A stretch of DNA of 9,055 nt, taken from the IMG/VR virus record IMGVR_UViG_3300028956_000044. One strand, 5' to 3'. The notes under the pieces are model-generated. The model saw nothing but the letters and a program-made list of their open reading frames with translations, did no database searches and was not told the DNA's origin. Position numbers and translations under genes: made by a program. Positions 1,051 through 9,055 of this stretch are shown in pieces (positions within the stretch are counted from its first letter, which is position 1; every line of letters starts with the position of its first letter). The DNA comes from a virus. Its lineage: Duplodnaviria; Heunggongvirae; Uroviricota; Caudoviricetes.

Positions 1051-1552
1051 AATTCCATCCAGCTTTTTGTTGGTATTGCTGTCGATACGCAAGCTTGAAA
1101 GCAATTGCTTTTTCTATAAGTTCGTCAGTTTCACGATCTACAACGGCAGGATCTGCAAAAAGCAGTCCGGATTCCACCACATCGCCATATTCTTTATTTA
1201 ACCCGGCGATCATGTACGTAATACTTTTTCCATCACTGATCTCACGATACAACCTGAAATCACTAATCCGGATAGCCTCCATAATCGCAGGCACTAGCGC
1301 CGTGAACTTTTCACGCTTATCCCTGGTGTCGATAGCCTTCCAGCGTTCGAATATCTTCACTCGATTAACGCCAAGCGCTCGCTGATCAACCGCGCCACCT
1401 TCATCTGTGACACGCTGAACATCGATGTTCGGGCGCTCTTTCAAAGCCCAGAATGCTTCAGTGATTAATATCGTCGCCTGCTCCTGTGTCATTCCTGGTC
1501 GACATATCCAGGCATCCAGAGCCTCACGAGCCTGTTCAGGAGTGATTTTCAT
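1031..1552 (-). CDS. 173-aa early protein in CII/YdaT position, function unknown
   Basis: ATG start (complement of 1550-1552) overlaps the dicC-like stop by 17 nt; its stop overlaps the next gene start by 20 nt (translational coupling layout). Sits immediately downstream of the Cro-like gene. No motif I can name with confidence. Confidence 0.6.
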   Translation of the reverse strand: MKITPEQAREALDAWICRPGMTQEQATILITEAFWALKERPNIDVQRVTDEGGAVDQRALGVNRVKIFERWKAIDTRDKREKFTALVPAIMEAIRISDFRLYREISDGKSITYMIAGLNKEYGDVVESGLLFADPAVVDRETDELIEKAIAFKLAYRQQYQQKAGWNYESSFC

Positions 1553-1766
1553 TGTTCAACCGCCCCGCCCGCTTCGTCTTACGATATTCATCATAAACTT
1601 TGGGATCATACTGAAGCTCCCCGCCAGATGCCTCCTGTAGACGCATCGCGCGACCTTCGGGAACTAAATCCCCTTTCCAGCTATAAAGCGAAGCCAAACG
1701 AATACCTGCTGCTTGTGCAAGTTTTGTTTTTGAACCGAAATACAAAAGAGCGTCAGTTTTAAGCAT
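1536..1766 (-). CDS. dicC: Cro-like regulator DicC
   Basis: 76-aa ORF divergent from the repressor gene, ATG at complement of 1764-1766. The length and divergent position match E. coli Qin DicC (76 aa) as I recall it. Promoter-like -35 TTGACT / 17 nt / -10 TATTTT on the minus strand (complement of 1799-1827) precedes it. Confidence 0.8.
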   Translation of the reverse strand: MLKTDALLYFGSKTKLAQAAGIRLASLYSWKGDLVPEGRAMRLQEASGGELQYDPKVYDEYRKTKRAGRLNNENHS

Positions 1767-1849: not shown

Positions 1850-2257
1850 ATGGAAACAAAAAATTTAACTATCGGCGAACGCATTAGGTATCGTCGGAAA
1901 AACCTCAAACACACCCAAAGGTCTCTTGCTAAAGCCCTGAAAATCTCCCATGTGTCTGTATCACAATGGGAACGGGATGATAGTGAACCTACAGGGAAGA
2001 ACCTTTTTGCCCTCAGCAAAGTATTGCAATGCTCACCAACATGGATTCTATTTGGCGATGAAGACAAGCAACCAACACCACCTGTTGAGAAGCCAGTTGC
2101 CTTATCCCCCAAAGAACTAGAGCTCCTTGAGCTGTTTAATGCACTGCCAGAATCAGAACAGGATACCCAGCTCGCCGAAATGCGAGCTCGAGTAAAAAAC
2201 TTCAATAAACTCTTTGAAGAATTACTAAAAGCCCGTCAGCGGACAAATAAAAGATAA
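1850..2257 (+). CDS. dicA: XRE-family HTH repressor DicA (cI-like immunity repressor)
   Basis: 135-aa ORF with an N-terminal HTH segment (LKHTQRSLAKALKISHVSVSQWERD) typical of XRE/cI-type repressors. The length equals the 135 aa I recall for E. coli DicA, and it is divergent from the Cro-like gene with palindromic operators between. Confidence 0.85.
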   Translation: METKNLTIGERIRYRRKNLKHTQRSLAKALKISHVSVSQWERDDSEPTGKNLFALSKVLQCSPTWILFGDEDKQPTPPVEKPVALSPKELELLELFNALPESEQDTQLAEMRARVKNFNKLFEELLKARQRTNKR

Positions 2258-2317
2258 CATCATCAATGAGTTATCTTTTACCACATCAATCATGTTAGCC
2301 ATAACATACAAAATCAC

Positions 2318-2346
2318 TTGACCTATATGTTAGCCATGGCTAATCT
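2318..2346 (+). promoter_or_regulatory. putative DicA-repressed promoter of the rightward dicB operon, with operator palindrome TTAGCCATGGCTAA (2330-2343)
   Basis: TTGACC (2318-2323), 17-nt spacer, TAATCT (2341-2346; weak -10). A perfect 14-bp palindrome at 2330-2343 overlaps the spacer and -10, and a partial copy ATGTTAGCCAT lies at 2292-2302. Exact -10 assignment is uncertain. Confidence 0.5.
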
Positions 2347-2427
2347 TATTTACATCAACACACCGCACGGTGTTCTCAGCAAACAGTTCCGCTACCCCAG
2401 CGTTAAGGGGAAACAGAGGATTTCTCA

Positions 2428-2784
2428 GTGGGCGAAGTCAAACATCAGAATGGAAGGCGTCCAGGGATCAGCAAAGAAACAGCGATGGCGCTTTATATTG
2501 ATATCAGCGCCATTGCCGGACAGGTAAGAATTATCAGAGCGGTAACTAAGCGGTATGCGCCTTTACTTCAGAAAGTCTCTGGTGAGTGCACCGAAGATAT
2601 TGTCAACGATTTCGTCATCAAACTGCGAGGACTCATCTTCAGTTACAAGGTGACCACAATTTTTGCAGATGGCTCCCGCGAAACTGTCAGAGCCCTGCGG
2701 TTTAAAGGATGTGTCAAAGACTTCGCCACCACATTCTGGGCAAGAAAACTTGATTGTATTCATAACCAATTTCCTCTCGAGTAA
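2428..2784 (+). CDS. 118-aa ORF at the position of ydfA/ydfB in the dicB operon
   Basis: GTG start 7 nt after AGAGGA (2415-2420); first gene after the putative operon promoter. In K-12 I recall two small genes here (ydfA 51 aa, ydfB 42 aa); this window has one continuous frame. Its 3' two-thirds overlaps an antisense zinc-ribbon ORF, so the true extent is uncertain. Confidence 0.45.
   Translation: MGEVKHQNGRRPGISKETAMALYIDISAIAGQVRIIRAVTKRYAPLLQKVSGECTEDIVNDFVIKLRGLIFSYKVTTIFADGSRETVRALRFKGCVKDFATTFWARKLDCIHNQFPLE
2563..2763 (-). CDS. 66-aa Cys4 zinc-ribbon small protein, antisense to the ydfA/ydfB-equivalent region
   Basis: Minus-strand ORF MNTIKFSCPECGGEVFDTSFKPQGSDSFAGAICKNCGHLVTEDESSQFDDEIVDNIFGALTRDFLK with ATG at complement of 2761-2763, preceded by GAGAGG (complement of 2774-2779). 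Shows CPEC-x17-CKNC, a canonical zinc-ribbon spacing, followed by an acidic tail. Could still be a chance antisense frame. Confidence 0.35.
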   Translation of the reverse strand: MNTIKFSCPECGGEVFDTSFKPQGSDSFAGAICKNCGHLVTEDESSQFDDEIVDNIFGALTRDFLK

Positions 2785-2855
2785 CAGACCCCTCAGAGGA
2801 TACCACCTCGCCTGACGTGGTTAAAAGCAGGCAACGCTAACCACAAGGAGCCGAC

Positions 2856-3074
2856 ATGCAGAAACGAGAACCCGTCATCATCGCGCCAGACTATACCGAT
2901 GATGAACTTTATGAGTGGATGCGCCAGAAAATTAATGCAGCGCAGGATTTGAAATGGGCCAATGAAGCCAGGGCTAAGCAGGCTGAAAATCTGTCCGCTC
3001 TGGAGCAGGATATCACCAGGCTGGAAAAAGCAGCGGCATTAAGCATTGCCAGAATGATTACATACCCGCGTTAA
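2856..3074 (+). CDS. ydfC: YdfC-like small protein (72 aa), dicB operon
   Basis: ATG 5 nt after AAGGAG (2842-2847). The 72-aa length and position, about 340 bp upstream of DicF, match K-12 ydfC as I recall it; the protein sequence itself was not recognised. Confidence 0.6.
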   Translation: MQKREPVIIAPDYTDDELYEWMRQKINAAQDLKWANEARAKQAENLSALEQDITRLEKAAALSIARMITYPR

Positions 3075-3215
3075 TAGATAACCAACGAAGCTAAGGTTGG
3101 TAATTAAGGAGTTCTCCACGGGTGAGGTGGAGTGCGTGCGCCGGACACGGGTGAGCATCCGGCACTGACAGTTTACTGAAAGGATATTTCCCTGAAAAGT
3201 CAGACCATAACGCGA

Positions 3216-3280
3216 AAGCGCACGGCGAGGTAGCTGGTTCATAGATAGCCTGTCGTTAAATTTTCGTCGACCGTGCGCTT
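3216..3280 (+). other. RNA stem candidate: perfect 10-bp inverted repeat AAGCGCACGG / CCGTGCGCTT with 45-nt loop
   Basis: Read directly: 3216-3225 is the reverse complement of 3271-3280. Lies in the ORF-free ydfC-dicF spacer. Confidence 0.4.
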
Positions 3281-3353
3281 CCGGTTGTGGCAATCAGCGA
3301 AATGGCGCGGCGGTAAGTATGGCGGGGTTATTCCTTCCCCCGTTGAGGACACC

Positions 3354-3390
3354 GGGTTGTCAGGTTGACCATACGCTTAAGTGACAACCC
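3354..3390 (+). other. RNA stem candidate: perfect 9-bp inverted repeat GGGTTGTCA / TGACAACCC with 19-nt loop, 26 nt upstream of DicF
   Basis: Read directly: 3354-3362 is the reverse complement of 3382-3390. Confidence 0.4.
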
Positions 3391-3415
3391 CACTGCAACG
3401 CCCTCTGTTATCAAT

Positions 3416-3473
3416 TTTCTGGTGACGTTTGGCGGTATCAGTTTTACTCCGTGACTGCTCTGCCGCCCTTTTT
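3416..3473 (+). ncRNA. dicF: DicF small regulatory RNA (ftsZ-targeting sRNA of Qin-type prophages)
   Basis: The 53 nt at 3416-3468 match, to my recollection base for base, the E. coli DicF sequence. They end in a GC-rich hairpin plus a TTTTT run at 3469-3473. Position between ydfC and dicB is syntenic with K-12 Qin. Confidence 0.85.
3431..3473 (+). terminator. intrinsic terminator forming the DicF 3' end
   Basis: GGCGG (3431-3435) pairs with CCGCC (3463-3467), with an inner CAG/CTG pair, followed by CTTTTT. Confidence 0.75.
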
Positions 3474-3481
3474 AAAGTGAA

Positions 3482-3621
3482 TTTTGTGATGCGGTGAATG
3501 CGGCTAAGCGCACGCGGAACAGTTAAAACCAAAAACAGTGTTATGGGTGGATTCTCTGTATCCGGCGTTAATTGTTAACTGGTTAACGTCACCTGGAGGC
3601 ACCAGGCACCGCATCACAAAA
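3482..3621 (+). other. perfect 15-bp long-range inverted repeat bracketing the dicF-dicB spacer
   Basis: 3482-3496 TTTTGTGATGCGGTG is the exact reverse complement of 3607-3621 CACCGCATCACAAAA. Arm A starts 9 nt after the DicF T-run; arm B ends 21 nt before the dicB ATG. Confidence 0.5.
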
Positions 3622-3642
3622 CTCATTGTTGAGGGCGCGATA

Positions 3643-3831
3643 ATGAAAACGTTATTACCAAACGTTAATACGTCTGAAGGTTGTTTTGAAATTGGTGTCA
3701 CTATCAGTAATCCTGTATTTACTGAAGATGCCATTAACAAAAGAAAACACGAACGGGAGTTATTAAATAAAGTATGCATTGTTTCAATGCTGGCCCGTTT
3801 ACGTCTGATGCCAAAAGGATGTGCACAATGA
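3643..3831 (+). CDS. dicB: cell-division inhibitor DicB (62 aa)
   Basis: ATG at 3643 preceded by GAGGG (3631-3635). The 62-aa product MKTLLPNVNTSEGCFEIGVTISNPVF matches my recollection of DicB, and it sits about 170 nt downstream of DicF as in K-12. The track's 97-aa version is an in-frame GTG extension with no RBS. Confidence 0.85.
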   Translation: MKTLLPNVNTSEGCFEIGVTISNPVFTEDAINKRKHERELLNKVCIVSMLARLRLMPKGCAQ

Positions 3832-4019
3832 ATCCAGTATTTGCACTTATTCTGACGGTTTTTCTTGTTTCCGGAGAGCCAGTTGATATTGCAGTCAGTG
3901 TTCACAGAACAATGCAGGAATGTATGGCAGCAGCAACCGAACAGAAAATTCCAGGCAACTGTTATCCGGTCGATAAAGTTATTCACCAGGATAATAACGA
4001 AATCCCGGCAGGATTTTAA
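3828..4019 (+). CDS. ydfD: YdfD-like small membrane/lysis protein (63 aa)
   Basis: ATG at 3828 overlaps the dicB TGA in an ATGA junction. Hydrophobic N-terminus (MNPVFALILTVFLVSG). Length and position match K-12 ydfD as I recall it. Confidence 0.7.
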   Translation: MNPVFALILTVFLVSGEPVDIAVSVHRTMQECMAAATEQKIPGNCYPVDKVIHQDNNEIPAGF

Positions 4020-4112
4020 AACAGCACCGTAATAAATATCCAGTTTCATTCTTATATGTCAGCAATGGCAGAGATTTGTTCACCCTTAAATCTGTGATGA
4101 GGTTTACCAATA

Positions 4113-6554
4113 ATGAGCACTGATAAAGAAGAATTTGCACTATATTGCGAAGCAAAAAATGACAAAGTAAGAAAACGCCTAGGAATTAAAGGTGGTTTTT
4201 ACTGGACTACAGCAAAAAAATTATCTGTTGCAATCTCCCGCTGCATTACCGCAATGGATGACAACGATTATGATGAAGACGACTTTAAAAAACCCGTCCG
4301 CGTCAATTTGCCCGTTGTTGACGACCTTCCGCCAGAAGGCGTGTTTGATACTGAATTCTGCAACCGCTATGAAAAAGGCGGGAAAGATGGCATCACAATG
4401 ACATTTATCGGCCCTTCCCCCTCTGTTCAGGACAAACCAGCCAGCACTGACAATACCAACATCAACGGCGAAGCCATGACTGAGATTGAGGAGAGCATGC
4501 TTCTGCCTGTCTCCGGTCAGGAACTGCCCATTCGTTGGCTTGCTCAACACGGCAGCGAAAAACCAGTAACGCACGTTTCACGCGACGAACTCCAGGCATT
4601 ACACATTGCACGGGCTGAAGAACTACCGGCTGTTACTGCCCTGGCTATTTCGCATAAAACCAGTCTGCTCGACTCGCTGGAGATTCGCGACCTCCACAAA
4701 CTGGTTCGTGACACTGACAAAGTTTTCCCTAATCCTGGTAATTCAGACCTGGGACTAATAACTGCTTTTTTCGAAGCATACCTAGACGCTGACTACACTG
4801 ATCGGGGTCTGCTGACAAAAGAGTGGATGAAAGGAAATCGTGTTTCACGCATCACCCGCACGGCTTCCGGTGCTAATGCTGGCGGTGGGAACAAAACCGA
4901 TCGCAATCCGAATTTAGTACACACCCTCGACACACTGGATGTGGAGATTGCAGCAGCCACACTTCCGATGGATTTTAATATTTATGAAATTCCGGGCAGC
5001 GTTTATCGTCGCGCAAAAGAAGTAGTCCTGAACAAAGAAAGTCCGTTCAAAGAATGGTCCGCAGCACTTCGTGCAACCCCGGGTATTCTGGACTATTCCC
5101 GCGCCGCTATTTTTGCACTTATCCGAAGCGCACACCCTGAATTTTATCACTACCCGGGACGCCTTCAGGGGTATATCAACGCCTATTTGACGGAAACTGA
5201 TCACGAGAACCCCAGCAAGGAAACTCTCACAGCTGCCCGGCATACGCCGGAAAAAGATATCCTGGAAGAAATTAACCGCGAGGTGGTTACTGAGCGTGAA
5301 ACAGAAGAAGAAAAACCACAACCATCTGACGCAATGGCAGGTGAACAGGCAACAACTGAAACAATGGAACCGGATACAACTGAACATGGCCAGAACGCGC
5401 AGTCGCTGGATGCTCAGTCGCAGGTGAGTTCCGCTAACCAAGTAAAAGTCACCGCTGACGAAGTAAACAAAATTATGCAGGCAGCCAATATCAGCCAGCC
5501 TGACGCCGATAAGTTACTTGCTGTATCGCGTGGTGAATTTGTTGAGGGGATTAGCGACCCTAATGATCCGAAATGGGTCAAAGGGATCCAGACTCGCGAT
5601 TCTGTGAACCAGAACCAGCATGAATCGGAACGGAACGACCAAAAAGCGGAACAAAACAGCCCAAATGCGTTACAAAACGAGCCAGAAACGAAACAATCCG
5701 AACCAGTGGCGCAACAGGAAGTGGAAAAAGTCTGCACCGCCTGCGGTCAGACCGGCGGCGGCAACTGCCCTGATTGTGGCGCGGTGATGGGCGACGCAAC
5801 ATACCAGGAAACATTCGATGAAGAGTATCAGGTTGAAGTTCAGGAAGATGATCCGGAGGAAATGGAAGGCGCTGAACATCCACACAAGGAGAACACTGGC
5901 GGCAATCAGCATCACGATAGCGATAATGAAACTGGCGAGACGGCAGATCACTCAATTAAGGTGAACGGTCATCAAGAAATCACATCCACCAGCAGGACGT
6001 GTGACCATCTAATGATCGACCTTGAAACCATGGGAAAAAATCCTGATGCCCCGATCATCTCAATAGGTGCAATATTTTTCGATCCGCAAACCGGAGATAT
6101 GGGACCGGAATTTAGTAAGACTATCGATCTGGAAACTGCTGGCGGAGTCATTGATCGGGACACCATTAAATGGTGGCTTAAGCAATCACGCGAAGCGCAA
6201 TCTGCCATTATGACCGATGAAATCCCGTTAGATGATGCACTGTTACAATTGCGGGAATTTATCGACGAAAACTCCGGTGAATTTTTTGTTCAGGTCTGGG
6301 GAAATGGAGCCAACTTCGACAACACGATTTTGCGCCGTTCATACGAACGGCAGGGGATCCCCTGCCCGTGGCGTTACTACAACGATCGCGATGTACGCAC
6401 AATCGTTGAGCTGGGGAAAGCCATAGACTTCGATGCCAGAACGGCTATTCCATTCGAAGGTGAGCGCCATAATGCACTTGATGACGCCCGTTACCAGGCA
6501 AAATACGTTTCAGTTATCTGGCAAAAACTGATCCCGAGTCAGGCTGATTCTTAA
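4113..6554 (+). CDS. ydfE: 813-aa RecE-N-terminal-like protein with C-terminal DEDDh 3'-5' exonuclease domain (full-length YdfE-type)
   Basis: ATG at 4113 with GAGG upstream. Residues ~1-360 resemble the N-terminal region of Rac RecE as I recall it. Residues ~370-625 are acidic and low-complexity, with a C-x2-C-x7-C-x2-C knuckle (nt 5733-5777). Residues 630-813 show DEDDh motifs: MIDLETMG (D636/E638, nt 6018-6026), [10 protein letters not shown] (D736, nt 6318-6320), HNALDDARY (H786, nt 6468-6470). Gene symbol is by synteny with K-12 ydfE, where I recall only a truncated remnant. Confidence 0.85.
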
Positions 6555-6565
6555 TGTTCAACTGT

Positions 6566-6597
6566 CGCCGGTTGTGACTGGTATTCTGCAACCGGCG
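6566..6597 (+). other. perfect 9-bp stem-loop CGCCGGTTG / CAACCGGCG between the exonuclease gene and xis; no U-run
   Basis: Read directly: 6566-6574 is the reverse complement of 6589-6597, with a 14-nt loop. No T-tract follows, so it is not a canonical intrinsic terminator. Confidence 0.4.
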
Positions 6598-6626
6598 CTC
6601 GTCTGATGTAAGAGATAAAGAAATCG

Positions 6627-6878
6627 ATGAGCGAAGTAATCATGATTGTCTCTCCCGGCAAATGGGTATCCGAAGAGCAGTTAATTGCGCTGAAAGGAAT
6701 AAAAAAAGGTACGTTAAAAAAGGCCCGGGAAAAATCGTTTATGGAAGGAAGGGAATATAAGCATGTCGCTCATGACGGTATGCCATGGGATAACAGTCCA
6801 TGCTTTTACAACCTGGAAGAAATTGATCGCTGGATTGAGCGCCAGGCATCAGCGAGACCAAGACGTCATCTTACTTGA
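6627..6878 (+). CDS. excisionase-like protein (Xis)
   Basis: 83-aa ORF ending 20 bp upstream of the integrase. Contains GREYKHVAH, reminiscent of the GREY-containing winged-helix of lambda Xis. An alternative start at the Met at 6642 is possible. Confidence 0.55.
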   Translation: MSEVIMIVSPGKWVSEEQLIALKGIKKGTLKKAREKSFMEGREYKHVAHDGMPWDNSPCFYNLEEIDRWIERQASARPRRHLT

Positions 6879-6897
6879 CTAAAAGCCACACTAACTA

Positions 6898-8193
6898 ATG
6901 AGAGAAGTTGAAATGAAATATCCGACAGGCGTGGAAAACCATGGAGGGAAATTACGTATCTGGTTTGTTTATAAAGGCGTAAGAGTCAGGGAAAATCTGG
7001 GGGTTCCTGACACATCAAAAAACAGGCGCGTTGCAGGTGAACTACGCTCCTCTGTTTGTTACGCAATAAAAACTGGTGTTTTCGACTATGCAAAACAGTT
7101 TCCCTCCTCACGCAATCTGGAAAAATTTGGTGAGGCCCGACAAGATTTAACCATAAAAGAACTGGCTGAAAAATTTTTGGCACTGAAAGAAACTGAAGTC
7201 GCCAAAACATCACTCAACACATACCGTGCCGTCATCAAAAATATCCTGAGCATAATCGGTGAAAAAAATCTTGCCTCATCGATTAATAAAGAAAAATTAC
7301 TGGAGGTTCGTAAAGAGCTACTGACTGGATACCAGATCCCCAAAAGTAACTATATTGTTACACAACCAGGGAGATCGGCTGTAACTGTAAATAATTACAT
7401 GACAAATCTTAACGCCGTGTTCCAGTTTGGTGTTGATAACGGTTACCTGGCAGATAATCCGTTTAAGGGGATCTCGCCATTAAAGGAATCAAGAACCATT
7501 CCGGATCCTCTTTCGCGGGAGGAATTTATCCGTCTTATCGATGCGTGCAGAAATCAGCAAGCAAAAAATTTATGGTGTGTTTCTGTTTATACTGGCGTTC
7601 GCCCTGGTGAGCTGTGTGCACTTGGATGGGAGGACATAGATCTGAAAAATGGAACAATGATGATCAGGAGAAATTTAGCAAAAGACCGTTTCACGGTACC
7701 AAAAACACAGGCGGGAACCAATCGGGTCATTCATCTTATTAAGCCAGCAATCGACGCTCTCCGGAGTCAGATGACATTAACGAGACTGAGCAAAGAGCAT
7801 ATCATTGATGTTCACCTCAGAGAGTATGGCAGAACAGAAAAACAAAAATGCACCTTTGTTTTTCAACCTGAAGTGTCAGCGAGAGTAAAAAATTATGGTG
7901 ACCATTTTACCGTTGACTCAATAAGGCAGATGTGGGACGCAGCGATAAAACGTGCCGGACTCCGCCATCGAAAATCATATCAGTCGAGACATACTTATGC
8001 CTGCTGGTCGCTGACAGCTGGTGCTAACCCGGCATTTATAGCAAACCAGATGGGCCATGCAGATGCGCAAATGGTATTTCAGGTATACGGAAAATGGATG
8101 TCTGAAAACAATAATGCACAGGTAGCTTTGTTAAATACACAGTTAAGCGAGTTTGCCCCAACCATGCCCCATAACGAAGCAATGAAAAATTAA
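6898..8193 (+). CDS. intQ: tyrosine site-specific integrase (Rac IntR-like; intact IntQ-type)
   Basis: 431-aa ORF. Tyrosine-recombinase catalytic segment visible: HRKSYQSRHTYACWSLTAGANP ... VFQVYGKWM. The MKYPTGVENHGGKLRIWF N-terminus resembles the Rac IntR family as I recall it. The second ATG at 6913 may be the true start. Symbol is by position next to rspB; K-12 intQ is, as I recall, a pseudogene. Confidence 0.9.
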   Translation: MREVEMKYPTGVENHGGKLRIWFVYKGVRVRENLGVPDTSKNRRVAGELRSSVCYAIKTGVFDYAKQFPSSRNLEKFGEARQDLTIKELAEKFLALKETEVAKTSLNTYRAVIKNILSIIGEKNLASSINKEKLLEVRKELLTGYQIPKSNYIVTQPGRSAVTVNNYMTNLNAVFQFGVDNGYLADNPFKGISPLKESRTIPDPLSREEFIRLIDACRNQQAKNLWCVSVYTGVRPGELCALGWEDIDLKNGTMMIRRNLAKDRFTVPKTQAGTNRVIHLIKPAIDALRSQMTLTRLSKEHIIDVHLREYGRTEKQKCTFVFQPEVSARVKNYGDHFTVDSIRQMWDAAIKRAGLRHRKSYQSRHTYACWSLTAGANPAFIANQMGHADAQMVFQVYGKWMSENNNAQVALLNTQLSEFAPTMPHNEAMKN

Positions 8194-8380: not shown

Positions 8381-9055
8381 TTATTCAGAAAAAGTGAGTA
8401 AGACTTTGCAGCAATGTTTTTGATCCTGTTCAAATAAACTAATGGCATCAGCAACATGCTGGAAATCAAACGTATGGGTAATTAATTTTTCTGGTTTAAT
8501 TAACCCTTTACTTAACCAGTCGATAACAACCGGAAATTTATTTGCATTTAAGCGTGAAGAGAAAATAGAGAGTTCTTTTCCGGTAATTCCTTGCTGAATC
8601 ACTTCAGACGGTTCACTGGAGAAGCCCATCAATACAATACGTGCCGCTGGAGAAGCCAGCGTTACGGCCTCTTTCAGGATAGAAGGATGACAAGCCGCAT
8701 CGATAATTAATGTCGGCTTGATGCCTTTTTCAGCGAAAATCTCGCCAAGCGGTGTCTGGCTGTTATTGATCGCCCAGTCTGCCCCGCTCTCTTTCGCTTT
8801 TTCCAGTCGTTCATCAATGCGATCGGCAACAATCACATTTTTAACGTTATAGACGCCTTTTAATACCTGAACGATCGTCAGGCCGATTGGACCGGCACCA
8901 TAAACCAGAACGGTATCATTTTCAGTCGGTTGACCATGTCCGGTTACGTTAGCCGCAATGGTAAAAGGTTCGATCATTACCGCATATTGATCGGCCACTG
9001 CTTCAGGAATTTTCCACGCATTTTTTGCCGGAACCACGGCATATTCACTGAAACC
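8381..9055 (-). CDS. rspB: zinc-dependent medium-chain dehydrogenase, C-terminal part (RspB-like); 5' end beyond window
   Basis: ORF open to the window edge on the minus strand. Rossmann nucleotide-binding segment VLVYGAGPIGL visible. Convergent with the integrase; rspB assignment rests on recalled K-12 synteny (intQ adjacent to rspB) and was not checked by alignment. Confidence 0.7.
   Translation of the reverse strand, partial: GFSEYAVVPAKNAWKIPEAVADQYAVMIEPFTIAANVTGHGQPTENDTVLVYGAGPIGLTIVQVLKGVYNVKNVIVADRIDERLEKAKESGADWAINNSQTPLGEIFAEKGIKPTLIIDAACHPSILKEAVTLASPAARIVLMGFSSEPSEVIQQGITGKELSIFSSRLNANKFPVVIDWLSKGLIKPEKLITHTFDFQHVADAISLFEQDQKHCCKVLLTFSE

What the first reader, a model, noticed from the sequence alone, without database searches (positions are those of the whole stretch)
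2318..6554. DicA-repressed operon as a candidate multi-effector stress or defence module
Under one repressor-controlled promoter the operon encodes: small ORFs of unknown function, an antisense zinc-ribbon candidate, a processed sRNA that blocks division (DicF), a division inhibitor that, as I recall, also confers phage resistance by disabling an inner-membrane receptor (DicB), a lysis-type protein (YdfD) and a large 3'-5' exonuclease-domain protein. Growth arrest plus nuclease resembles abortive-infection or superinfection-exclusion logic. This is a hypothesis; no defence function is demonstrated for the nuclease.
Basis: inference. Interest (0 to 1): 0.6.

Follow-up and report, generated by a model that had tools for sequence, protein, structure and literature searches.

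The report
Early-left operon of Qin-type prophage
This is the well-known dicBF early-left operon of a lambda-like E. coli prophage, here complete with a very common but unstudied exonuclease (RecE front end, 3'-5' nuclease head); nothing links that nuclease to phage defence.

Summary
Window 1850-8193 carries dicA, the dicB promoter, an antisense zinc-ribbon gene, ydfC, DicF, dicB, ydfD, an 813-aa exonuclease, then xis and int, next to rspB. It is the Qin locus of K-12 in a less decayed form. The same operon sits in the deposited complete phage genome PhiR42_1.

DicB-dependent phage exclusion, DicA/Rem control and stress induction are already published. The new claim, that the nuclease is a defence effector coupled to growth arrest, finds no support.
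- The nuclease has no PADLOC match.
- Residues 58-615 are 59% identical to the N-terminal region of RecE. The C-terminal domain is a DexA/Rv2179c-like DEDDh exonuclease in place of RecE's PD-(D/E)XK domain.
- It is never followed by an annealase; xis and int come directly after it.
- It sits next to dicB/dicF in Escherichia/Shigella only. In the other genera sampled it occurs without them.
- Its DNA is in 75% of complete E. coli genomes.

Division inhibitor plus sRNA plus nuclease is the standard lambdoid early-left layout, as in lambda (kil, exo-bet-gam) and Rac (kilS, kilR, recET).

The antisense zinc-ribbon (ECs_2282 family) is a real gene. It is placed like sieB and is the better candidate for a gene expressed in the lysogen.

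The parts
1536..1766 (-). dicC, the Cro-like regulator, divergent from dicA. Context, not part of the operon.
   Evidence: Pfam P22_Cro 1.7e-11. 100% identical to K-12 DicC.
1850..2257 (+). dicA, the CI-like repressor of dicBp.
   Evidence: Pfam HTH_3 1e-15. 99% identical to K-12 DicA. Its repressor role is taken from PMC10448788.
2293..2346 (+). dicBp, the PL-equivalent promoter. -35 TTGACC at 2318-2323 and -10 TAATCT at 2341-2346. Two operator-like sites: TGTTAGCCATAACA at 2293-2306 and TGTTAGCCATGGCTAA at 2328-2343, the latter holding the perfect palindrome TTAGCCATGGCTAA (2330-2343).
   Evidence: Read directly from the sequence. Nearly identical to the K-12 dicA-ydfA intergenic region. The consensus scan did not list it, because the -10 matches only 3 of 6. 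Promoter identity is taken from K-12 literature.
2414..2855 (.). Replacement cassette. K-12 and strain MEI1O2-23 carry ydfA-ydfB here; the window carries the antisense zinc-ribbon gene instead.
   Evidence: The blastn alignments to L001 and L003 break at 2413 and resume at 2856. 922 E. coli genomes cover at least 80% of the 2300-3100 stretch that holds this cassette.
2563..2763 (-). ECs_2282-family zinc-ribbon gene, 66 aa from the ATG at 2763. Motifs CPEC and CKNC plus an acidic tail. It runs antisense to dicBp transcription.
   Evidence: NCBIfam NF047912, 57 bits against a cutoff of 37. PGAP annotates it in strain H1827/12. Homologues of 60-70% identity keep the Cys pairs, apart from one single-sequence outlier at the third Cys. 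Synonymous to non-synonymous changes are 69:118 in this frame and 39:148 in the shadow frame.
2856..3074 (+). ydfC, a small protein of unknown function.
   Evidence: phrog_1744 at 2e-39. 99% identical to K-12 YdfC.
3416..3468 (+). DicF sRNA. Its 3' hairpin followed by CUUUUU is terminator-like and lies inside the operon.
   Evidence: Rfam RF00039 76.7 bits. Identical to K-12 dicF. Predicted fold -22.2 kcal/mol, z = -3.1.
3643..3831 (+). dicB. It inhibits division through MinC and blocks phage DNA entry through ManYZ.
   Evidence: Pfam DicB 5e-40 and NCBIfam 134 bits. Function is taken from PMC6832061.
3828..4019 (+). ydfD, a lysis protein that inhibits IspG. Its start overlaps the dicB stop (ATGA).
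   Evidence: Pfam DUF1482 4e-25. 89% identical to K-12 YdfD. Function is taken from PMC8835842.
4113..5957 (+). Exonuclease gene, RecE-like N-terminal region (residues 1-615). Folded domains at residues 1-100 and 130-395, then an acidic disordered linker with a CxxC...CxxC knuckle at residues 541-556.
6006..6521 (+). Exonuclease gene, C-terminal DEDDh 3'-5' exonuclease domain (residues 632-803). Catalytic residues D636, E638, D736, H786 and D791. The gene ends at 6554.
   Evidence: PF16473 at 1e-67. The closest solved structure is T4 DexA, 8KEL. The motifs are located. D636 is invariant and H786 nearly invariant across 15 chimeras.
6627..6878 (+). Excisionase, same strand, 72 nt after the exonuclease stop. 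A likely distal member of the same transcription unit.
   Evidence: Pfam DUF1233 2e-31 and phrog_539 excisionase. An xis-like ORF follows the nuclease directly in related loci.
6898..8193 (+). Tyrosine integrase, intact at 431 aa. The prophage end abuts rspB (8381-9037, minus strand).
   Evidence: Annotated in the syntenic strain. In K-12 intQ is a pseudogene.

Best explanation
Window 2293-8193 is the early-left (PL-type) operon of a Qin/PhiR42_1-type lambdoid prophage of E. coli, integrated beside rspB.

**In the lysogen.** DicA binds operators that overlap dicBp and keeps the operon off (shown in K-12; inferred here from near-identity).

**On derepression.** Derepression can come through the Rem antirepressor, the DicA/DicC bistable switch, or urea and heat. 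Transcription then runs through ydfC and DicF. [quoted passage not shown] Read-through transcripts express dicB, ydfD and the exonuclease, and probably xis and int.

**What the products do.** They are phage early, host-takeover functions.
- DicF and DicB stop FtsZ ring formation, as lambda Kil and Rac KilS/KilR do.
- DicB also shuts ManYZ, which excludes lambda-like competitors.
- YdfD inhibits IspG.
- The 813-aa protein fills the slot that holds exo-bet-gam in lambda and recE-recT in Rac.

**The nuclease.** It is a common domain-swap relative of RecE. It has the same N-terminal region of unknown function and the same acidic linker. A DexA/Rv2179c-like DEDDh 3'-5' exonuclease head replaces the PD-(D/E)XK 5'-3' head, and there is no annealase partner.

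**Inferred, not shown.** The N-terminal region brings the nuclease to the same partner or substrate as in RecE. The head trims 3' ends of DNA, or possibly RNA, for the phage's own lytic development. That could be processing of replication or recombination intermediates, or nucleotide salvage as with T4 DexA. It is not an abortive-infection effector.
For: **Synteny with known loci.**
- The window is syntenic and near-identical with K-12 Qin and with the complete phage genome PhiR42_1, which has lambda-like structural genes.
- dicBp is described as PL-like and DicA/DicC as CI/Cro-like (PMC10448788).
- Rac is parallel gene for gene: ydaG/ydaF, antisense sieB, kilS, kilR, recE, recT, xis, int. kilS is itself a sub-threshold DicF match, 39 bits, E = 1e-5.
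- Lambda has N, antisense sieB, kil, gam, bet, exo, xis, int.

**The nuclease is a RecE relative with a different head.**
- 59% identity to the RecE N-terminal region.
- PF16473 plus the intact DEDDh residues.
- T4 DexA is the nearest solved fold.
- Among the best 150 cluster representatives, about 22 are RecE-N plus DEDDh and about 17 are RecE-N plus PD-(D/E)XK (Pfam on a 56-sequence subset).

**The head and the annealase swap together.**
- RecT is present in 3 of 3 loci with a RecE-type head and in 0 of 70 loci with the DEDDh head.
- Modules reassort. L084 has DicB, DicF, RecE and RecT. L050 has KilR and the DEDDh chimera.

**Position and distribution.**
- xis and int follow the nuclease directly.
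- In other Enterobacteriaceae the chimera keeps its place between a repressor and xis/int, but DicB and DicF were not found.
- The domain is found in 1289 phage genomes, including lytic T4-like phages.
- It has no PADLOC match.
Against: - No experiment addresses this nuclease. Its substrate (DNA or RNA) and its role are unknown.
- Pfam names the family after an exoribonuclease.
- A 3'-5' polarity does not fit the single-strand-annealing logic of the slot it occupies.
- A July 2026 preprint shows that some prophage-borne DEDDh exonucleases with auxiliary domains defend against RNA phages (PMC13344964). A defence role therefore cannot be excluded.
- Co-transcription of the nuclease, xis and int from dicBp is inferred from gene order and from K-12 RegulonDB units. 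It is not shown for this sequence.
- No N-type antiterminator was found to explain read-through of the DicF terminator.
Confidence: 0.82

Rival explanations
1. The operon is a coordinated multi-effector defence or abortive-infection module. On a trigger, DicF and DicB arrest growth, YdfD lyses the cell, and the nuclease degrades invading or host nucleic acid.
For: DicB-dependent exclusion of ManYZ-dependent phages on induction of the operon (PMC6832061). Toxic products held under tight repression, with stress induction. DicB, YdfD and the nuclease are adjacent in 67 of 70 close relatives.
Against: - The operon is the lytic early-left operon of a lambdoid phage.
- In K-12, where the exclusion phenotype was measured, this nuclease is absent; ydfE is unrelated.
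- dicF and ydfD had minimal effect on exclusion.
- The nuclease has no PADLOC match.
- The linkage to DicB and DicF was not found outside Escherichia/Shigella.
- Modules reassort freely with KilR and RecET.
- No infection-sensing trigger is known.
Confidence: 0.07
2. The nuclease acts alone as an antiviral or exclusion exonuclease, in the manner of the TONDO proteins. A DEDDh head plus an auxiliary domain would trim the 3' ends of competitor genomes, RNA phages for example. This would be independent of DicB and DicF.
For: The TONDO preprint reports DEDDh exonucleases with varied auxiliary domains, located in prophages, that protect against MS2 and Qbeta (PMC13344964). The Pfam family is named for an exoribonuclease. 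The gene is kept in 75% of complete E. coli genomes, in up to 7 copies.
Against: - The TONDO candidates were chosen as ISG20 homologues under 500 aa.
- This domain matches RNase_T/PF00929 at only 21.7 bits, below the cutoff of 24.
- No link to the plasmid-borne EcTon could be made; plasmid hits are mostly non-mobilizable records of 40-60 kb.
- The gene sits in a repressed lytic operon, not in a moron position.
- Homologues occur in strictly lytic phages.
Confidence: 0.1
3. The nuclease is a counter-defence or recombination accessory for the phage. It might remove 3' tails or small nucleic-acid signals or primers used by host systems. Or it might process ends for host RecA/RecFOR-dependent recombination in place of an annealase. 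This is a sub-case of the best explanation with a specific mechanism.
For: It occupies the slot that holds Gam, Ral/Lar and the exo genes in lambda and Rac. It shares the RecE N-terminal region. It keeps its early-left position across genera. In K. michiganensis a standalone homologue lies beside a dATP/dGTP pyrophosphohydrolase gene.
Against: There is no direct evidence. No known anti-defence family matches. The structural search of the N-terminal region was uninformative.
Confidence: 0.25

Closest known systems
[quoted passage not shown]
   Same: Same chromosomal site beside rspB. DicA, DicC and YdfC are 99-100% identical, DicF is identical, DicB is 97% and YdfD 89% identical. The promoter and operator region is the same.
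   Different: ydfA and ydfB are replaced by an antisense ECs_2282 zinc-ribbon cassette. K-12 ydfE is an unrelated pseudogene cut by IS2, whereas the window has the 813-aa RecE-N::DEDDh gene. xis and int are intact here.
Escherichia phage PhiR42_1 (PV340562), a complete lambda-like temperate phage genome
   Same: The same early-left string: cI/DicA, ydfA/B/C, the dicF-dicB region, ydfD, an 823-aa exonuclease whose C-terminal domain is 99.5% identical, xis, int. Rem, RelBE, HokD and lambda-type structural genes are also present.
   Different: It carries ydfA and ydfB rather than the zinc-ribbon cassette. Its RAST-style annotation miscalls several ORFs and labels the nuclease 'exodeoxyribonuclease VIII'.
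Rac prophage early-left operon (racR | ydaG ydaF [sieB] kilS kilR ydaE racC recE recT ralR xisR intR)
   Same: Gene-for-gene parallel. It has DUF1391 (YdaF/YdfA), an antisense gene near the promoter (sieB against the zinc ribbon), a DicF-like sRNA (kilS, 39-bit DicF match), a division inhibitor, a large exonuclease with a homologous N-terminal region (59% identity), then xis and int.
   Different: RecE carries a PD-(D/E)XK 5'-3' head and is followed by the annealase RecT. The window protein carries a DEDDh 3'-5' head and has no annealase. KilR and DicB are unrelated proteins.
T4 DexA (exonuclease A) and the Rv2179c-like family, PF16473
   Same: The C-terminal domain is a full-length PF16473 match with the DEDDh catalytic residues. 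DexA is the closest solved structure, with Foldseek E = 8e-9 and TM-score 0.66 on the target.
   Different: DexA and most homologues are standalone proteins of about 190-230 aa. Here the domain is fused behind about 620 residues of RecE-type sequence. Sequence identity to DexA is only about 21-28%.
TONDO antiviral exonucleases (PMC13344964, preprint)
   Same: A DEDDh 3'-5' exonuclease joined to an auxiliary domain of unknown function and carried on prophages or other mobile elements.
   Different: TONDOs were picked as ISG20/RNase_T-type homologues under 500 aa. This protein is of the Rv2179c-like type, 813 aa, and lies in a repressed lytic operon. No antiviral activity has been tested and no sequence link was established.

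Membership tests
Qin-type dicBF operon | DicA repressor next to a DicA-controlled promoter (dicBp) | tested here: met
   DicA is 99% identical. The promoter and operator region is near-identical to K-12. Repression itself was not tested.
Qin-type dicBF operon | DicF sRNA followed by dicB and ydfD | tested here: met
   Rfam 76.7 bits; Pfam DicB 5e-40; DUF1482 4e-25.
Qin-type dicBF operon | ydfA-ydfB-ydfC leader genes | tested here: not met
   Only ydfC is present. ydfA and ydfB are replaced by the 2414-2855 cassette.
Lambdoid early-left (PL) operon | A divergent CI-like/Cro-like pair beside the promoter, with the operon ending in xis-int at the attachment site | tested here: met
   dicA and dicC, then xis at 6627-6878 and int at 6898-8193, abutting rspB. 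The layout is the same in lambda and Rac.
Lambdoid early-left (PL) operon | A recombination module made of an exonuclease plus an annealase | tested here: not met
   No RecT or Bet homologue in the window, in PhiR42_1 or in any of the 70 DEDDh-chimera loci. Erf- and Sak-type annealases were not searched.
Lambdoid early-left (PL) operon | An N-type antiterminator and a nut site | not tested
   No N-like ORF appeared in the family scans. No specific search was made.
RecE / exodeoxyribonuclease VIII (NCBIfam NF007259) | The RecE N-terminal region | tested here: met
   59% identity over RecE residues 50-591. Pfam Exonuc_VIII 1.5e-35.
RecE / exodeoxyribonuclease VIII (NCBIfam NF007259) | A C-terminal PD-(D/E)XK 5'-3' nuclease domain and a full-length score above the cutoff | tested here: not met
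   The match covers model positions 1-602 of 877 only, at 944 bits against a cutoff of 1269. No significant alignment to RecE beyond residue 591.
RecE / exodeoxyribonuclease VIII (NCBIfam NF007259) | An adjacent RecT annealase | tested here: not met
   xis starts 72 nt after the stop codon. RecT is absent.
DEDDh 3'-5' exonuclease, Rv2179c-like/DexA type (PF16473) | A profile match above the curated cutoff | tested here: met
   227 bits against a cutoff of 27, covering positions 2-177 of 177.
DEDDh 3'-5' exonuclease, Rv2179c-like/DexA type (PF16473) | The five catalytic residues D, E, D, H, D | tested here: met
   D636, E638, D736, H786 and D791. D636 is invariant and H786 nearly invariant in 15 chimeras.
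DEDDh 3'-5' exonuclease, Rv2179c-like/DexA type (PF16473) | The DnaQ-like fold | tested here: met
   AF2 gives pLDDT mostly above 90 for residues 630-810. Foldseek top hits are DexA, RNase T, 3'hExo and Orn.
DEDDh 3'-5' exonuclease, Rv2179c-like/DexA type (PF16473) | 3'-5' exonuclease activity and substrate (DNA or RNA) | not testable with these tools
   Needs biochemistry.
Catalogued anti-phage defence or abortive-infection system | A match to a known defence protein model | tested here: not met
   PADLOC gave no hit for the nuclease, DicB, YdfD or YdfC. The zinc ribbon had only marginal hits with E about 2e-3.
Catalogued anti-phage defence or abortive-infection system | Conserved co-occurrence of the proposed effectors across taxa | tested here: not met
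   DicB and DicF accompany the nuclease in Escherichia/Shigella only. DicB was searched in all 80 species-level loci. DicF was searched by blastn in all 80 and by Rfam in eight non-Escherichia chimera loci.
Catalogued anti-phage defence or abortive-infection system | Protection against phage that depends on the nuclease | not testable with these tools
   The published exclusion phenotype was measured in K-12, which lacks this nuclease.
TONDO (ISG20-like antiviral exonucleases) | Homology to the ISG20/RNase_T-type DEDDh domain | tested here: inconclusive
   PF00929 at 21.7 bits, below the cutoff of 24. TONDO sequences are not held, so no direct comparison was possible.
ECs_2282 zinc-binding protein family (antisense gene) | A profile match above the cutoff and two CxxC pairs | tested here: met
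   57.2 bits against a cutoff of 37. C9, C12 and C37 are invariant; C34 is kept in all but one single-sequence outlier.

The most novel reading that the evidence does not exclude
The RecE N-terminal region may be a reusable targeting scaffold that phages equip with alternative nuclease heads: PD-(D/E)XK with RecT, or DexA-like DEDDh with no annealase. The DEDDh version, present in about 75% of complete E. coli genomes, would then be an exclusion or antiviral exonuclease, TONDO-like, with the RecE-N region as its auxiliary domain. On derepression it would act together with DicB to protect the induced or lysogenic cell from competing phages.
Probability: 0.08. Interest if true: 0.6.

Novelty: already known. 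Interest (0 to 1): 0.25.

Why it matters
If the defence reading were right, one of the commonest prophage genes in E. coli would be an unrecognised immunity factor. The long-unexplained RecE N-terminal domain would also gain a function.

As the evidence stands, the finding restates published dicBF biology. What it adds are annotation points.
- The large 'exodeoxyribonuclease VIII' or '3'-5' exonuclease' of Qin-type prophages is a RecE-N::DexA-like domain swap that never comes with an annealase. It should not be annotated as RecE or counted as a RecET recombineering candidate.
- K-12 ydfE is not its remnant.
- RAST-style phage records annotate the shadow strand of a real antisense zinc-ribbon gene.

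Tried and rejected
- **Homologue search with the full protein.** It saturated with thousands of near-identical E. coli copies and gave no diversity. The representative library was used instead.
- **Linking the nuclease to the TONDO protein EcTon.** No supplementary files are held for the preprint. A tblastn against plasmids found mostly non-mobilizable records of 40-60 kb, not IncF/IncC plasmids.
- **K-12 ydfE as a remnant of the nuclease.** Rejected: BLASTP finds no similarity.
- **The + strand ORF 2485-2784 (phrog_21318) as a real small protein.** Rejected as a shadow of the zinc-ribbon gene.
- **Literature searches.** The first 'RecE' search matched 'receptor'. Searches for 'exodeoxyribonuclease VIII + dicB' and for 'ECs2282' found nothing.
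- **Genome scan with alignment A2.** The alignment was too diverse to use, so A3 was used.
- **P22 erf.** The P22 stretch I fetched did not contain erf. Erf- and Sak-type annealases were therefore not screened.
- **Promoter scan.** The consensus scan does not list dicBp. Its identity rests on conservation with K-12.

Full report
**What is in the window**

The 9055-bp window is E. coli DNA. Over 95% of it aligns at 97.7% identity to strain MEI1O2-23, and 5392 of 5426 complete genomes share some part of it. It covers the integrase-proximal end of a lambdoid prophage inserted beside rspB, the site of the Qin cryptic prophage in K-12.

Gene order, from left to right:
- a replication-O-like gene and a ydaT-like gene, both on the minus strand
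- dicC, 1536-1766, minus strand
- dicA, 1850-2257
- the dicB promoter region
- a 442-bp cassette, 2414-2855
- ydfC, 2856-3074
- DicF, 3416-3468
- dicB, 3643-3831
- ydfD, 3828-4019
- an 813-aa exonuclease gene, 4113-6554
- xis, 6627-6878
- int, 6898-8193
- rspB

Against K-12, DicA, DicC, YdfC, DicB and YdfD are 99, 100, 99, 97 and 89% identical, and DicF is identical.

The promoter is TTGACC (2318-2323), a 17-nt spacer, then TAATCT (2341-2346). It carries two TGTTAGCC-type operator-like sites, and the whole region is almost base-for-base that of K-12.

**Corrections to the observation**

1. ydfA and ydfB of K-12 are missing. The alignment to K-12 and to MEI1O2-23 breaks at 2413 and resumes at 2856.
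2. The cassette that replaces them encodes the 'antisense zinc-ribbon candidate', and this is a real gene.
   - It matches NCBIfam NF047912 (ECs_2282 family) at 57 bits against a cutoff of 37.
   - PGAP annotates it in strain H1827/12.
   - Homologues of 60-70% identity in Citrobacter, Klebsiella and Enterobacter keep CPEC...CxxCGH and an acidic VTEDESSQFD stretch, apart from one single-sequence outlier at the third Cys.
   - Over six pairwise comparisons, substitutions fall 100/43/130 on codon positions 1/2/3. Synonymous to non-synonymous changes are 69:118 in the zinc-ribbon frame and 39:148 in the exact antisense frame. The antisense frame also has a stop codon in one homologue.
   - The + strand ORF 2485-2784 (phrog_21318, annotated in phage Evi) is therefore a shadow ORF.
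3. The operon does not end at 6554. xis and int follow closely on the same strand. The consensus scan lists no +-strand terminator-like site between the exonuclease and int. K-12 units in RegulonDB run from dicB through intQ (PMC11430063).
4. 'One promoter' is a simplification. DicF ends in a hairpin plus a U-run that looks like an intrinsic terminator, upstream of dicB. K-12 has further annotated promoters before dicF and before dicB.
5. The nuclease is not an intact K-12 YdfE. BLASTP finds no similarity between them.

**What the nuclease is**

The C-terminal residues 632-803 are a full-length PF16473 (Rv2179c-like 3'-5' exoribonuclease) match at 1e-67. The DEDDh residues D636, E638, D736, H786 and D791 are all present. 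D636 is invariant and H786 nearly invariant across 15 diverged chimeras. The closest solved protein by sequence and by fold is T4 DexA, PDB 8KEL, followed by RNase T, 3'hExo and Orn.

Residues 58-615 are 59% identical to residues 50-591 of RecE, the exonuclease VIII of the Rac prophage. The NCBIfam RecE equivalog matches positions 1-602 of 877 and then stops. In RecE the nuclease domain is C-terminal (residues 564-866) and the N-terminal domain has no known function (PMC11611040). The protein is thus a RecE relative whose PD-(D/E)XK 5'-3' head has been exchanged for a DexA-like 3'-5' head, across an acidic disordered linker.

This architecture is not a one-off. Among the best 150 representatives at 50% clustering, about 22 are RecE-N plus DEDDh, about 17 are RecE-N plus PD-(D/E)XK (DUF3799), and 67 are standalone DEDDh proteins (Pfam on a 56-sequence subset). 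DNA for the DEDDh head is present in 4048 of 5426 complete E. coli genomes, in up to seven copies per genome. The dicF-dicB-ydfD segment is present in 3779.

*Close relatives.* In 80 IMG/VR loci, 70 carry the DEDDh chimera. Of these, 67 have dicB and ydfD within 1.5 kb upstream and 53 have DicF. None has RecT. An xis-like ORF and an integrase follow directly, at median offsets of about +60 and +270-350 nt.

*The head and the annealase travel together.* All three loci with a RecE-type head carry RecT.

*Modules reassort.* L084 combines DicB, DicF, RecE and RecT. L050 combines KilR and YdaE with the DEDDh chimera.

*One genome per species (GTDB).* This sample gave 19 chimeras and 57 standalone genes.
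- DicB was found in the four Escherichia/Shigella-type loci only, both by tblastn and by an HMM built from 21 DicB variants.
- DicF was found in three of those four by blastn. An Rfam search found none in eight non-Escherichia chimera loci.
- In Citrobacter, Kluyvera, Kosakonia, Enterobacter, Leclercia and others, the chimera sits about 1.5-3 kb downstream of a DicA-like repressor and just before xis/int. An Rrf2-like gene often lies directly upstream, and a YdfD homologue is sometimes present.

*Conclusion.* The nuclease is a conserved member of this early-left operon, and DicF/DicB are an Escherichia-lineage addition. Their adjacency reflects shared ancestry, not an obligate functional pairing.

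*Wider distribution.* The DEDDh domain occurs in 1289 phage records, including strictly lytic T4-like phages. Its plasmid hits are mostly non-mobilizable records of 40-60 kb.

**What the operon is**

The literature describes dicBp as PL-like and DicA/DicC as CI/Cro analogues. It also reports an antirepressor (Rem), spontaneous bistable induction, and induction by urea and heat (PMC10448788).

The complete phage genome PhiR42_1 carries the same operon ahead of xis and int. It also has Rem, RelBE, HokD, Q, lysis genes and lambda-type head and tail genes. No annealase is annotated or found in it by tblastn.

Rac is parallel gene for gene: ydaG/ydaF, antisense sieB, kilS, kilR, ydaE, racC, recE, recT, ralR, xis, int. 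Its kilS overlaps a sub-threshold DicF match of 39 bits, E = 1e-5. Lambda has N, antisense sieB, ral, cIII, kil, gam, bet, exo, xis, int.

'Growth arrest plus nuclease' is therefore the ordinary content of a lambdoid early-left operon.

**The interpretation**

The defence element that is real is DicB blocking ManYZ-dependent phages, with minimal contribution from dicF and ydfD. It is published, and it was measured in K-12, which lacks this nuclease (PMC6832061). YdfD as an IspG-targeting lysis protein is also published (PMC8835842).

For the nuclease there is no PADLOC match and no conserved partnership with the other 'effectors'. It sits in a repressed lytic operon rather than in a position expressed in the lysogen.

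In the homologous prophage of strain MEI1O2-23, a recognised defence system (Kiwa KwaA/KwaB) lies elsewhere, beyond the replication genes.

The one piece of outside support is a July 2026 preprint. It shows that some prophage-borne DEDDh exonucleases with auxiliary domains (TONDOs) protect against RNA phages (PMC13344964). Those proteins were chosen as ISG20-type homologues under 500 aa. The present domain matches RNase_T only below threshold, and no sequence link could be made.

**Best explanation**

This is the early-left operon of a Qin/PhiR42_1-type prophage, and its products serve the phage's lytic programme.
- DicF and DicB block division.
- DicB excludes competitors at ManYZ.
- YdfD inhibits IspG.
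- A RecE-scaffolded 3'-5' exonuclease processes nucleic-acid 3' ends.
- xis and int excise the prophage.

The identity of each part and the layout are shown by the analyses above. Regulation is inferred from near-identity to K-12. The nuclease's substrate and role are inference only.

**Novelty and score**

The object is already known and annotated in thousands of genomes. Its proposed new function is unsupported but not excluded. The useful residue is threefold:
- the domain-swap description of a very common, unstudied prophage nuclease;
- the fact that this nuclease never comes with an annealase;
- the antisense zinc-ribbon gene.

Interest: 0.25.

Noticed in passing
window 2563-2763 (minus strand); L090-L093 8001-8201; L094 and L095 6001-6201: The ECs_2282 zinc-ribbon gene always lies within a few hundred bp of the immunity region and runs antisense to an early lytic transcript. 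In the window and in Citrobacter and K. michiganensis prophages it opposes the early-left operon. In K. variicola it opposes the early-right operon just after cro. sieB has the same topology in lambda and Rac. It is a candidate lysogen-expressed moron of unknown function. Its minus-strand upstream region has a possible extended -10 (TGGTATCCT) and a good ribosome-binding site, and a GGCGCT...AGCGCC hairpin follows the stop codon.
   Followed up: partly
window 2485-2784 (+); phage Evi LR597642 (L089 5983-6339): RAST-type phage annotations and phrog_21318 call the shadow ORF on the strand opposite the zinc-ribbon gene. RefSeq PGAP calls the zinc ribbon. Public records therefore disagree on the coding strand here.
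   Followed up: yes
L004 8911-8966 (K-12 Rac, kilS): The Rac sRNA gene kilS overlaps a sub-threshold DicF match (39 bits, E = 1e-5). DicF-like sequences of 88-90% identity lie about 210 nt upstream of kilR in Rac-like IMG/VR loci L078 and L080. The DicF-type sRNA thus travels with either of two unrelated division inhibitors, DicB or KilR.
   Followed up: partly
L001 1-2442 (strain MEI1O2-23, left of the region matching the window): The homologous prophage carries a Kiwa defence system (KwaA and a KwaB-like gene) and a QueH gene beyond the replication genes. Recognised defence cargo in this phage type sits outside the dicBF operon.
   Followed up: no
L096 (JAGZPX010000007.1, labelled as a Veillonella parvula MAG): This contig is 93-100% identical at the protein level to the E. 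coli prophage, including the exonuclease, DicB, YdfD, xis and int. It is probably a mis-binned or contaminating contig in that MAG.
   Followed up: no
L100-L110, L116, L126, L137 (non-Escherichia chimera loci), about 140 nt upstream of the exonuclease gene: A 110-123-aa Rrf2-family winged-helix protein is encoded directly upstream of the RecE-N::DEDDh gene in 13 of 19 species-level chimera loci. It takes the place held by dicB-ydfD in Escherichia.
   Followed up: partly
P0136, P0140, P0150, P0193, P0221, P0223, P0235, P0250, P0278: Many proteins of 640-815 aa with a RecE-type N-terminal region have neither a DEDDh nor a DUF3799/PD-(D/E)XK domain recognisable by Pfam. They may be fragments, or they may carry further, undescribed C-terminal heads. 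L080 and L087 carry a head only 27-30% identical to that of RecE, with no RecT or Bet nearby.
   Followed up: partly
L095 1-1085 (K. michiganensis prophage): A standalone Rv2179c-like exonuclease lies next to a dATP/dGTP pyrophosphohydrolase (PF04447) gene at the distal end of an early-left operon. This hints at a link to nucleotide metabolism for the standalone form.
   Followed up: no
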